Shown here: piece after piece, positions 4,193 to 51,017 of the stretch
How the letters are laid out: every line of letters starts with the position of its first letter
Position numbering within the stretch: the stretch's first letter is position 1
Source: Eledone cirrhosa
Lineage: Eukaryota
Assembly: GCA_964016885.1 (NCBI GenBank)
Contig: OZ024748.1
Coordinates: forward strand, 5,952,001-6,016,000
Direction of reading: 5' to 3'
DNA: 64,000 nucleotides
Notes under the pieces: generated by a model
What the model was told of the DNA's origin: nothing
Seen by the model: only the letters and a program-made list of their open reading frames with translations
Database searches by the model: none
Position numbers and translations under genes: made by a program

Positions 4193-4381
4193 AGTTTATC
4201 ACGGGTTCAATCTGGAGTAACCACAGTAAGTAAGGTACACAATACAAAGCAGAGTATAGATATTTAATATAGAAAAGGCTTCTATAAGACTAGAACTGTT
4301 TCATTCGGGAGAAATCTTCGGGAAGCCCTGATGATTTCTCCCGAATGAAACAGTTCTAGTCCCGTAGAAGCCTTTCTATAT

Positions 4382-4639: not shown

Positions 4640-4896
4640 AATATATATATGCATCTATGCATTTATGTATGTATGTATGTAAGTATGCATTTACGTATAT
4701 ATGTCGTCCGTCTATATGTATATATGTATGTAAGTATGTATATATGTAAGTATGCATGTATGCATATATGTTCATCTGTATGTATGTATATATGTATATA
4801 TGTAAGTTTGTATATATGTATATATGTAAGTATGTATATATGTAAGTATGCATGTATGTAAGTATGCATGGATGTATATATGTCCATCTGTGTGTT

Positions 4897-4928
<32 letters not shown>

Positions 4929-5130
4929 AGTATGTATATATGTAATTATGCATGTATACATATATGTCCATATGTATGTATGTATATATGAAAGTTTGTA
5001 TATATGTAAGTATTCATATATGTATATATGTCCATCTGTATGTATATATATTTAAGTATATATATATATGTAAATATGCATGTACGTATATATGTCCAAC
5101 TGTATGTATATATGTATGTATATATATATA
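4640..5130. repeat. Degenerate TATG/TAAG-based minisatellite
   Basis: Recurrent units such as TATATGTAAGTATGCATGTATG and TATATGTCCATCTGTATGTATG; similar units at 6340-6440. Confidence 0.8.
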
Positions 5131-5404
5131 TATAAACGGAATAAATGAAACGAAATTTCATTTCTCACGCTTCGTACGGCTGTTACTTAAATATAAGTAT
5201 GTATACGTACATACATACATGTATACAGACGTACAGTAGTATGTATATATATATATACATACATGCACACATATATATATATGTATGTATGGATTGACCG
5301 AACATTTATTATAATGCTCGGTGTGTTTGTAAACAAACATCCCGAATTAAGCCGTACAGTGTCTAGCAACCATCGTTGCTCATTTGTTCAACACTGACAA
5401 AGGA

Positions 5405-5447
5405 ACGATGTACTAGTTTCAAGCTTAATAGCTATCGTCAGCAAAGT
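5405..5447 (-). ncRNA. Type I hammerhead ribozyme motif (mirror copy, weak helix I)
   Basis: Minus strand: ACTTTG CTGACGA T AGCT ATTA AGCT T GAAAC TA GTA CATCGT. Confidence 0.55.
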
Positions 5448-5685
5448 ATACCTTCCTTCCAGATGATTGAACGTCCGAAAGTATATACTTTACTTATGCA
5501 TATTAAGGGCTGAGCAGCCTAATTTGCATATCGAGTGAGTTAATCGGCCGGGTGTGTTAATCACTAAGAGTGAGAATTGAAATTTCGTTTCATTTTTTTC
5601 CGTTTATCGTTTTCGCTGCTCAGCCGTTAATATACATAAGGAAAGTATATACTTTCAGACGTTCAATCATCTGGCAGGAAGGTAT

Positions 5686-5728
5686 ACGTTGCTGACGATA
5701 GCTATTAAGCTTGAAACTAGTACATCGT
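5686..5728 (+). ncRNA. Type I minimal hammerhead ribozyme motif
   Basis: ACGTTG CTGACGA T AGCT ATTA AGCT T GAAAC TA GTA CATCGT. Helix I pairs 5 of 6, helix II has 4 bp, helix III is the palindrome ACTAGT, and the cleavage triplet is GUA. Confidence 0.7.
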
Positions 5729-5937
5729 TCCTTTGTCAGTGTTGAACAAATGAGCAACGATGGTTGCTAGACACTGTACGGCTTAATTCGGGATGTTTGT
5801 TTACAAACACACCGAGCATTATAATAAATGTTCGGTGAATCCATACGTACATATATATATGTGTGCATGTATGTATATATATATATATATATACATACTA
5901 CTGTACGTCTGTATACATATATGTATGTACGTATACA

Positions 5938-5987
<50 letters not shown>

Positions 5988-35504: not shown

Positions 35505-35785
35505 AGTTTATCCCGTGTTCAATCGGGGGGTAACCAGAGTAAATAAGGTGCTCAATACATAGCAGAGTATAAATATTTAATATAGAAAGGCTTCTACAGG
35601 ACTAGAAATGTTTCATTCGGTAGAAATCATCAGGAAGCAGCTGTCCAAGTAATATGGTGGTTTTTTATATCTCCTACCACAAGAAAAGATATAAATACAA
35701 CCATTTTACTTGGACAGCTGCATCCTAATGATTTCTACTGAATGAAACAGTTCTCGTCCTGTAGAAGCCTTTCTATATTAAATAT
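35505..35785 (-). mobile_element. Penelope-like tail-plus-fold-back element, family A (longer copy)
   Basis: Tail 35505-35572, then arms 35573-35672 and 35687-35785; (TA)n on both sides; homologous to 4193-4388. Confidence 0.8.
35590..35638 (-). ncRNA. Type I hammerhead ribozyme motif
   Basis: Minus strand: GCTTC CTGATGA T TTC TACC GAA T GAAACA TTTCTAGTCC TGT A GAAGC. Helix I has 5 bp and the cleavage triplet is GUA. The mirror arm has CTAATGA (G5A). Confidence 0.7.
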
Positions 35786-37380: not shown

Positions 37381-37712
37381 TTCTCTTTCTCTCCCTCATT
37401 CTTACGTGATAGTTCCGTCACTCATCAAATGCGAAAGCTTCAACTCATTTCAATTTCATCATCTTCTATACATCGGTCACAACAGATTCACAAACACACC
37501 GACACACATACGAACAGATGCACAGAGACAGGTGCACAATATTGTAACGAAATCACAATTACACACACACACACACGTATATATATATATATACATATAT
37601 ATTGATGAAAATAGTGCTCGATCTAGTGTAAGAAACGTAAGGTCTGATGACTGAACCACGGTTGCGATCACTCCACCATGCATTCTGCACCACCGCGCCC
37701 AGTGTGTGGAGA

Positions 37713-37758
37713 TGGTCATAACTGGACCTTGAAACCTAACGTAGTGGTTTACTTGTTC

Positions 37759-37816
<58 letters not shown>

Positions 37817-37862
37817 GAACAAGTAAACCACTACGTTAGGTTTCAAGGTCCAGTTATGACCA
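37713..37862. repeat. Perfect palindrome: two 50-bp arms around a (TA)n core
   Basis: TGGTCATAACTGGACCTTGAAACCTAACGTAGTGGTTTACTTGTTCTGAA (37713-37762) and its exact reverse complement (37813-37862). Confidence 0.92.
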
Positions 37863-37876
37863 CTTCCACAGATGAT
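37827..37876 (-). ncRNA. Variant or decayed type I hammerhead motif
   Basis: Minus strand: ATCAT CTGTGGA AGT GGTC ATAACTG GACC TT GAAAC CTAAC GTA GTGGT. Helix I has 5 bp with G-U pairs; the core has A6->U. Confidence 0.45.
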
Positions 37877-49701: not shown

Positions 49702-49793
<92 letters not shown>

Positions 49794-49835
49794 AAATGAA
49801 AATCTGAAGGCAAGGTAAAATTCCAATATTTTTAA

Positions 49836-49909
49836 TCACGACACATGTTTCAATAAGAGATAGATCGATCGTAAAGCCATGATCAATTATCATTGATCTC
49901 ATCAGGTGA
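49836..49909 (-). ncRNA. Type I hammerhead ribozyme motif (mirror copy)
   Basis: Minus strand: TCAC CTGATGA GATCAATGATAATTGATC...ATT GAAAC ATGT GTC GTGA. Confidence 0.65.
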
Positions 49910-50740
49910 AAATGAATTGTCTTCAAATTCTTGATATGAGGGAGAAAATTAGCAATGTTCACTCACAGAGTTTATTCCCTCATATGGAGATCCAGAAGTC
50001 AGAAATACGGCGACTGCTATCAGCTTCAGTTAGGGTCATAAAACTGTCAAATCTCCATAGCTGCAAAGGACGCTGGACATTAATCAGATCTGTAGAAATA
50101 CAGTCGGTCACAGTTAATGTCAGTGGGTACACACACACTCAACACCCATACACACCGGCTCGAGGTCAAAGAAAAACAAATATATATATATACATATCAA
50201 CACAGCATCAAACCTGTAGAACTATATAACCCAATATTTCCAATTTACATCATCAAATTGAGATTTGACCAATGTAGCATTTGTTGTTTTGTAAACGAAC
50301 TTTCGGTGAATGGTGTGTTGGTATATTCTTATTCTTATATTTATTGTTTTTTTCTATGACATCGCTTCGGTGTGTGTGTGAGAGTGCGTGTGTACCCACT
50401 CACACTAATTGTGACCTTCTATAGTTCTACATGTTTGATGCTGTGTTGATATGTGTATATATATATATATTTTTTTTTTCTTTGACCTCAGCCGGTGTGT
50501 ATGGGTGTTGAGTGTGTGTGTACCCACTGACATTAACTGTGACCGACTGTATTTCTACAGATCTGATTAATGTCCAGCGTCCTTTGCAGCTATGGAGATT
50601 TGACAGTTTTATTGCCCTAACTGAAGCTGATAGCAGTCGCCGTTTTTCTGACTTCTGGATCTTCATATGAGGGAATAAACTCTGTGAGTGAACATTGCTA
50701 ATTTTCTCCCTCATATCAAGAATTTGAAGACAATTCATTT

Positions 50741-50814
50741 TCACCTGATGAGATCAGTGATAATTGATCATGGCTTTGCGATCGATCTATCTCTTATTGA
50801 AACATGTGTCGTGA
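50741..50814 (+). ncRNA. Type I hammerhead ribozyme motif with enlarged domain II
   Basis: TCAC CTGATGA [47 nt] GAAAC ATGT GTC GTGA; canonical GUC cleavage triplet and 4-bp helix I. Confidence 0.65.
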
Positions 50815-50979
50815 TTAAAATGATTGGAATTTTACCTTGCCTTCATTTTGATACTTATACTCCGTTTTACAACATCTAGCTGTTCCCTTGAATAGAATTG
50901 GAGATATACAAATCCGTGGAGAACTTAATATTGCTAACATAAATTTATTGGACCGTTTTACACAACCAATAATACACCT

Positions 50980-51017
<38 letters not shown>

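What the first reader, a model, noticed from the sequence alone, without database searches (positions are those of the whole stretch)
5134..5940. 320-bp-arm palindrome with a circularly permuted terminal segment
Seen: besides the main arms, 5134-5168 (AAACGGAATAAATGAAACGAAATTTCATTTCTCAC) is the reverse complement of ~5570-5606 in the spacer. This segment precedes the arm on the + strand but follows it on the - strand. Inference: the template was a tandem or circular RNA unit, as expected for tandem pLTRs or hammerhead-processed circular RNAs.
Basis: partly seen in the sequence, partly recalled or inferred. Interest (0 to 1): 0.7.

Follow-up and report, generated by a model that had tools for sequence, protein, structure and literature searches.

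The report
Ribozyme repeat with Penelope-type ends
This mirror-image stretch is one decayed copy of a non-coding repeat of about 433 bases, present over 11,000 times in this animal genome, that carries a predicted self-cutting RNA motif and was likely pasted in by a Penelope-type jumping-gene enzyme copying one RNA from two fixed start points; both the repeat type and the end pattern are known kinds, and a circular RNA template is not shown.

Summary
The palindrome and the extra segment are real (arms 5188-5518/5615-5949, 94%; segment 5132-5175/5563-5607, 89%). The locus is a two-armed, head-to-head insertion, in a (TA)n tract, of a ~433-bp hammerhead tandem repeat (non-LTR retrozyme; 11,409 exact core matches). 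The 'permuted' segment is the unit's start. On the left it is the one-sided 56-nt Penelope 'tail'; on the right the arm begins just before it and has a private 39-bp deletion. Of 79 two-armed copies, 56 had two classifiable ends; 53 pair a long with a short end. An RT+GIY-YIG Penelope-like family here leaves the same footprint; no partner homologous to the repeat was found. Tandem templates are supported. A monomer circle is not: copies run through the cut site, and 20 of 23 informative variants sit in only some units. A>G changes shared within insertions (17, against 5 T>C) point to edited sense RNA. Inverted copies, tails and two internal start sites are in print (PMC8557442, PMC11167929). 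This scan reported the same layout earlier for other repeat families of this genome. New member of a known kind.

The parts
5132..5552 (-). Left arm, ribozyme sense on -, unit positions u50 to u433 then u1 to u37; ends at the family's 'long' 3' end
   Evidence: (L001 mapped on natural unit L015:1430-1862)
5132..5187 (-).
5411..5441 (-). Type I hammerhead core of the left arm; predicted cut after 5411; stem I has 2 mismatches of 6
5553..5562 (.). 10-nt insert at the head-to-head junction of the two arms
   Evidence: L001, gap 10
5563..5949 (+). Right arm, u427 to u433, u1 to u45, then u85 to u414; ends at the family's 'short' 3' end
5563..5607 (+). Second copy of the terminal segment = unit start in the right arm
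5614..5615 (+). Site of a 39-bp deletion (about u46-u84) that makes the segment look detached from the arm; 2 pattern matches genome-wide, this one and a 38-bp variant
5692..5722 (+). Type I hammerhead core of the right arm; predicted cut after 5722; stem I has 1 mismatch of 6
4644..5131 (.). Left target flank, degenerate (TA/TATG)n
5950..5987 (.). Right target flank, (TA)n

Best explanation
The locus is one insertion of an abundant non-coding ~433-bp hammerhead tandem repeat (non-LTR retrozyme), made of two head-to-head arms in a (TA)n tract whose outer ends lie at two fixed sites 56 nt apart, and it was likely written in by a Penelope-like RT/GIY-YIG protein acting in trans. Inferred steps: (1) a tandem array is transcribed in the ribozyme-sense direction and some adenosines are edited; (2) the protein cuts both strands in (TA)n; (3) one DNA end primes at u37 and the other at u414 of the same RNA, most likely an uncut multi-unit transcript; (4) both cDNAs stop at variable places and are end-joined, which gives a palindrome with the 56-nt tail on one side only; (5) afterwards this copy drifted (arms differ at 8 of 230 sites) and the right arm lost 39 bp at or after insertion. 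Shown: unit, copy number, arrays, end rule, junctions, flanks. Not shown: transcription, cleavage, the partner protein.
For: 11,409 exact matches of a 26-nt core, 0 for the reversed control. Orientation: 36 of 79 position-ordered and 43 of 60 best-match insertions are divergent pairs; 1 and 1 have other multi-arm layouts. 53 of 56 pairs with two classifiable ends have one long and one short end (p 8e-13; position-ordered alone 23 of 24). TA tract beside 77 of 84 long and 74 of 90 short ends; 60 of 79 inner junctions within 10 nt of blunt. The two arms agree at subfamily sites about 90% of the time against about 60% between loci. Non-A>G rare variants are shared in register 20 of 368 against 2 of 277 out of register (p 7e-4). 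Shared A>G 17 v T>C 5, private 67 v 64; L118 has 14 A>G v 1 T>C, two shared by both arms. A 938-aa RT+GIY-YIG family has long/short ends about 60 nt apart in TA, one of each in 3 of 3 two-armed loci. PMC11167929: a purified Penelope-like protein cuts and extends both strands at AT-rich DNA, starts at two internal RNA sites that define the tail, and does not need hammerhead cleavage.
Against: No protein-coding element with ends homologous to this unit in 46 GIY-YIG loci (30 best + 16 chosen of 150 listed, 10,596 candidates); the unit hits in L177, L193 and L196 look like nested insertions (L196 read by eye). In-register sharing could also come from later arm-to-arm gene conversion. A>G variants are shared equally in and out of register (6 of 44 v 5 of 32 events, p 1.0), which fits a circle or a homogeneous source array better than a mixed multimer. 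Counted by distinct site and locus without L118, the A>G excess is not significant (126 v 101, p 0.13), and the 5'-neighbour bias I recall for ADAR is absent. An unexplained G>T over C>A excess (97 v 64, p 0.018) is also present. PMC11167929 saw no strand difference in start-site use in vitro, whereas the rule here needs one. 23 of 79 pairs have an unclassifiable end and 3 have like ends. The tail is 56 nt against 30-40 nt in print.
Confidence: 0.72

Rival explanations
1. Same enzyme and ends, but the template is a hammerhead-cut, re-ligated monomer circle that is reverse-transcribed round and round from both DNA ends.
For: Arms pass the cut site: 104 of 128 exceed the length a cut linear monomer allows (37 of 59 shorter arms), and 38 of 216 pass it twice or more. 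A>G variants are shared between successive units of one arm (16 of 76 allele counts v 2 of 51 for T>C) and out of register. Stem I keeps pairing at u158/u194 in 206 of 224 segments through three pair types. The unit folds compactly as a circle (-149 v -93 +/- 7 kcal/mol; mononucleotide shuffles only).
Against: Where 3 or more segments of one insertion cover a shared variant, 20 of 23 are in only some segments; one circle predicts all. In-register excess of other variants. No RNA evidence. PMC11167929 finds unprocessed RNA the dominant substrate in vitro.
Confidence: 0.25
2. The repeat inserted as a single arm, and the mirror arm arose at DNA level (fold-back repair or inverted duplication) or by self-priming on an antisense RNA, as suggested for Penelope palindromes in PMC3846280.
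For: 42 of 79 position-ordered insertions are single-armed; the arms share subfamily and rare variants; a few junctions sit on local palindromes (L026, L028).
Against: A DNA fold-back would not end at a second fixed site 56 nt from the first in 53 of 56 cases; the short arm often holds unit sequence absent from the long arm; most junctions are not symmetric; shared variants lean to A>G on the ribozyme strand, not T>C.
Confidence: 0.06
3. L1-style twin priming or insertion of hammerhead-cut linear monomers.
For: A few long arms stop near the short start site (L034, L047, L114, L138, L142).
Against: The arms overlap in unit coordinates instead of being complementary parts; 1 of 216 inner ends lies at the cut site (4 expected if uniform; sample biased to hammerhead-bearing arms); most arms are too long; no poly(A) seen at the ends.
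Confidence: 0.04

Closest known systems
Metazoan non-LTR retrozymes (Cervera & de la Pena 2020, PMC7229834, passages seen; Li, Clavereau & Pollet 2026, 10.64898/2026.07.22.740005, parts 1-3 of 5 read)
   Same: Non-coding tandem repeat of 150-450 bp, low GC, one type I hammerhead per unit with a 2-bp stem III and palindromic loop; Penelope-like elements proposed as the mobiliser.
   Different: Here about half of the insertions are head-to-head pairs with a long/short end rule in (TA)n; the 2026 preprint's text has no 'tail' or 'palindrom' and 'inverted' only in a reference. Circular RNA was shown for coral, mussel and axolotl, not here. The base pair closing stem II next to the core is U-U here.
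Insertion footprint of endonuclease-bearing Penelope-like elements (Craig et al. 2021, PMC8557442; Arkhipova et al. 2013, PMC3846280; passages seen)
   Same: Partial tandems, an inverted 5'-truncated copy head to head, a tail at one end only, preference for (TA)n, a hammerhead in the terminal repeat.
   Different: No ORF; the tail is 56 nt, not 30-40; the whole element is the repeat unit; no homologous autonomous element was found.
Poseidon element of Anolis (PAc) in vitro (Frangieh et al. 2024, PMC11167929; parts 1-2 of 4 read)
   Same: Both strands cut and extended at AT-rich DNA; two internal start sites bounding the tail, at a stem-loop; hammerhead cleavage dispensable.
   Different: PAc showed no strand preference between the two start sites and starts in an AC-rich loop; here genomic copies use one site on each side, and both sites end in TTAT-like sequence next to TA.

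Membership tests
Metazoan non-LTR retrozyme | Tandem repeat unit of 150-450 bp | tested here: met
   ~433-bp unit, dimers to about 25-mers
Metazoan non-LTR retrozyme | Type I hammerhead in each unit (core CUGAnGA, GAAA, nUH; three stems) | tested here: met
   Core and stems I (6 bp), II (4 bp), III (2 bp) present; core positions 97-99% conserved; stem I pair kept through U-G, A-U, G-U. Rfam did not list it among the rows shown.
Metazoan non-LTR retrozyme | No protein coding, GC under 50% | tested here: met
   No stop-free frame of 120 aa or more overlaps 5132-5949; GC about 35% at scored unit sites
Metazoan non-LTR retrozyme | At least two consecutive hammerheads in one orientation | tested here: met
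   Met by the family (38 of 216 arms, plus four long-array loci); not by this locus, which has one per strand
Metazoan non-LTR retrozyme | Self-cleavage of the RNA | not testable with these tools
   Needs in vitro transcription; the single motif is not the minimum-energy fold, as expected for a motif that works as a dimer (PMC4209133, part 1 of 4 read)
Metazoan non-LTR retrozyme | Linear and circular monomer RNAs in tissues | not testable with these tools
   Only assembled contigs were on offer; variant patterns are mixed
Penelope-like element footprint | Inverted 5'-truncated copy, head to head | tested here: met
   79 of 139 insertions; 1 tail-to-tail
Penelope-like element footprint | Tail at one end only | tested here: met
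   53 of 56 classifiable pairs; 56 nt
Penelope-like element footprint | (TA)n or AT-rich targets | tested here: met
   151 of 174 fixed ends abut TA
Penelope-like element (autonomous) | ORF with RT and GIY-YIG endonuclease | tested here: not met
   None in the unit or window; such ORFs exist elsewhere in the genome
Non-autonomous derivative of a named Penelope family | Homology of the unit to the pLTR of a coding element | tested here: inconclusive
   None in 46 GIY-YIG loci of 150 listed
Penelope-like element footprint | Retained intron overlapping the pLTR/tail | tested here: inconclusive
   u1-u83 reads GTGAG...TTAG by eye; 0 spliced copies by exact gap pattern; no RNA to test splicing
Penelope-like element footprint | Target-site duplication | not testable with these tools
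   Ends lie in TA tracts; no empty allele available

The most novel reading that the evidence does not exclude
One Penelope-type ribonucleoprotein uses its two internal start sites asymmetrically, one for each end of a double-strand cut, on a single edited sense-strand RNA that is a ribozyme-made circle; the genome then records rolling-circle reverse transcription of a retrozyme, and the edits settle the sense-versus-antisense template question raised for Penelope.
Probability: 0.25. Interest if true: 0.65.

Novelty: new member of a known kind. Interest (0 to 1): 0.38.

Why it matters
How animal retrozymes move has been proposed (Penelope-like enzymes, perhaps on circles) but not shown in the papers read. 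This family ties a retrozyme to the Penelope footprint by numbers: a long/short end rule, end-joined inner junctions, and editing-like changes on the ribozyme strand. It gives a short non-coding substrate with two predicted start sites for the in vitro system of PMC11167929. The locus itself is an ordinary decayed copy, and the scan has met the same layout several times in this genome.

Tried and rejected
Rfam: no hammerhead among the rows shown; TA-driven miRNA hits rejected. Circular permutation as a special property of this locus: rejected, since inner ends are scattered over the unit and the deletion is private. Pile of inner ends at the cut site: not seen; an apparent pile at u158-163 shrank to 9 of 216 after the reference differences at u156-157 were corrected and was not tested further. 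Spliced form of a possible u1-u83 intron: 0 matches; the one exact 38-nt GT..AG loss (L199) is treated as a microhomology deletion. Autonomous partner: not found. RNA: no RNA holder listed; three guessed-RNA runs lay only on short low-complexity parts of the unit. Independent support for the central junction: no listed contig piece spans it. Look-up of this unit among earlier findings by sequence: nothing. Literature searches for the combination found no paper on inverted, tailed retrozyme insertions or on editing scars in them; one search returned 0; subscription journals are mostly missing, and supplements (for example Fig. S9 of PMC7229834, Fig. S2 of PMC11167929) were not read and may bear on this. 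Rows dropped before counts: 12 duplicate loci (L002, L014, L018, L024, L025, L077, L078, L086-L088, L092, L100), 3 without the unit (L055, L058, L070), long arrays (L054, L056, L057, L066; L102 also), clusters cut by a locus edge or under 150 bp; microsatellite, poly-T and subfamily sites were left out of the variant counts. One alignment row (L105) was mis-specified and ignored.

Full report
Observation. The window is animal DNA rich in TA microsatellites; the group is not established here (cephalopod-like is my guess). Each arm holds a type I hammerhead core, with predicted cuts after 5722 (+) and 5411 (-).

The family. A 241-bp query gave 1714 candidates in the own genome, and a 26-nt core variant matched exactly 11,409 times against 0 for the reversed control. 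At least four subfamilies are visible; median private divergence per segment is 1.7% (232 segments). No stop-free frame of 120 aa or more overlaps the locus.

Anatomy of this locus. Left arm 5552 to 5132 on the minus strand = u50 to u433 plus u1 to u37. A 10-nt insert (5553-5562). Right arm 5563-5949 = u427 to u45, a 39-bp deletion, then u85 to u414. So the segment is simply the unit start: the left arm runs 56 nt past the point where the right arm stops, and the right arm happens to begin just before u1. The deletion pattern occurs at only one other place in the genome, as a 38-bp variant. Both flanks are TA tracts. The arms differ at 8 of 230 compared sites; both carry a U-U in stem I and the left arm a second mismatch. 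With one sense ribozyme per strand the locus cannot release a monomer.

End rule. Among 79 position-ordered insertions 36 are divergent pairs, 42 single arms and 1 convergent; among 60 best-match insertions 43, 16 and 1 complex. Outer ends fall at u37 (or its eroded form near u25-30) or u414. Of the 79 pairs, 56 have two classifiable ends and 53 of these pair long with short (p 8e-13; 23 of 24 in the position-ordered set). 151 of 174 fixed ends abut TA; 60 of 79 inner junctions are within 10 nt of blunt, with short overlaps or inserts and no target DNA seen between the arms. The tail folds into two hairpins, with the short site in the loop of the first and the long site at the base of the second (z -3.4 and -3.2). 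A coding family with RT and C-terminal GIY-YIG (L183, 938 aa) has ends about 60 nt apart in TA, one of each in 3 of 3 two-armed loci, and its tail runs into the element body in 2 loci. It shares no detected sequence with the repeat; no homologous partner was seen in 46 GIY-YIG loci.

Template. Cut linear monomers are excluded for most copies: 104 of 128 arms are too long (37 of 59 shorter arms) and 1 of 216 inner ends lies at the cut site (the sample is biased to ribozyme-bearing arms). The two arms come from the same subfamily (about 90% against 60% concordance) and share rare alleles at 5.8% against 1.1% for same-subfamily loci. Among non-subfamily variants, shared A>G outnumber shared T>C 17 to 5 (p 0.017) while private ones are 67 to 64; L118 carries 14 A>G against 1 T>C, two of them in both arms. 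Against it: the overall excess is not significant per site and locus without L118 (p 0.13), there is no 5'-neighbour bias, and G>T exceeds C>A as well. Circle against multimer is mixed. For a circle: A>G variants are shared between units of one arm and out of register as often as in register. Against: other variants are shared in register (20 of 368) far more than out of register (2 of 277; p 7e-4), and 20 of 23 shared variants covered by three or more segments are in only some of them. Later gene conversion can blur both, and unit registers were assigned by script. I put an uncut multimer ahead (about 0.55) of a monomer circle (about 0.25).

Mechanism. Shown: unit, abundance, arrays, end rule, junctions, flanks. 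Inferred: a Penelope-like protein binds the RNA near the tail hairpins, cuts both strands of (TA)n, starts one cDNA at u37 and the other at u414 of the same RNA, and the two truncated cDNAs are end-joined. The hammerhead (2-bp stem III with palindromic ACUAGU; expected to work as a dimer by PMC4209133) would process array transcripts but is not needed for the ends.

Comparison. Retrozyme features are those of PMC7229834 (passages) and the 2026 preprint (parts 1-3 of 5). Inverted copies, one-sided 30-40-bp tails and TA targeting are described in PMC8557442 and PMC3846280 (passages); close opposite-strand hammerhead pairs are noted in PMC4209133 (part 1 of 4). PMC11167929 (parts 1-2 of 4) shows two internal start sites, extension of both strands and dispensable cleavage in vitro. 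What I did not find in print is a retrozyme with this footprint, the near-strict one-site-per-side rule, and editing-like scars as evidence for a sense template. Earlier notes of this scan report the same layout for 310-, 422- and 467-bp families of this genome; these are leads, not support. This 433-bp unit had no look-alike among them.

Verdict. Observation confirmed; interpretation partly supported (tandem yes, circle unproven). New member of a known kind; interest 0.38.

Noticed in passing
window 4270-4380 (+ core 4328) and about 35590-35650 (- core 35633): A second, different hammerhead family (longer stem III, GUC/GUA site); the first copy is a short palindrome around stem II. Similar motifs lie near GIY-YIG loci L188, L192 and L195.
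   Followed up: no
window 49790-50990: Another two-armed palindrome between TA tracts (388-bp arms, 96%), with the right side about 130-140 bp longer; another family.
   Followed up: no
window 37705-37871: Short near-perfect palindrome centred on a (TA)n tract.
   Followed up: no
L118:1616-2058: Unit with 14 A>G and 1 T>C on the ribozyme strand, one in the stem III loop; looks like a reverse-transcribed hyper-edited RNA.
   Followed up: partly
L056-L057 (G000:C3:72261556-72272381): Array of about 25 units, long end in TA on one side, with higher-order repeats; a small opposite arm lies about 3.8 kb beyond.
   Followed up: partly
L183:3309-6122 (-): Open 938-aa RT+GIY-YIG ORF with about 1-kb direct terminal repeats and a ~60-nt tail; no hammerhead found by my pattern.
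   Followed up: partly
L117, L118, L122, L129: Long ends of one subfamily are followed by (TC)n instead of (TA)n.
   Followed up: no
unit u1-u83 (left arm end and right arm start): Reads like an 83-nt spliceosomal intron (GTGAG, TTAAC, TTAG) overlapping the tail, as in Penelope; no spliced genomic copy found.
   Followed up: partly
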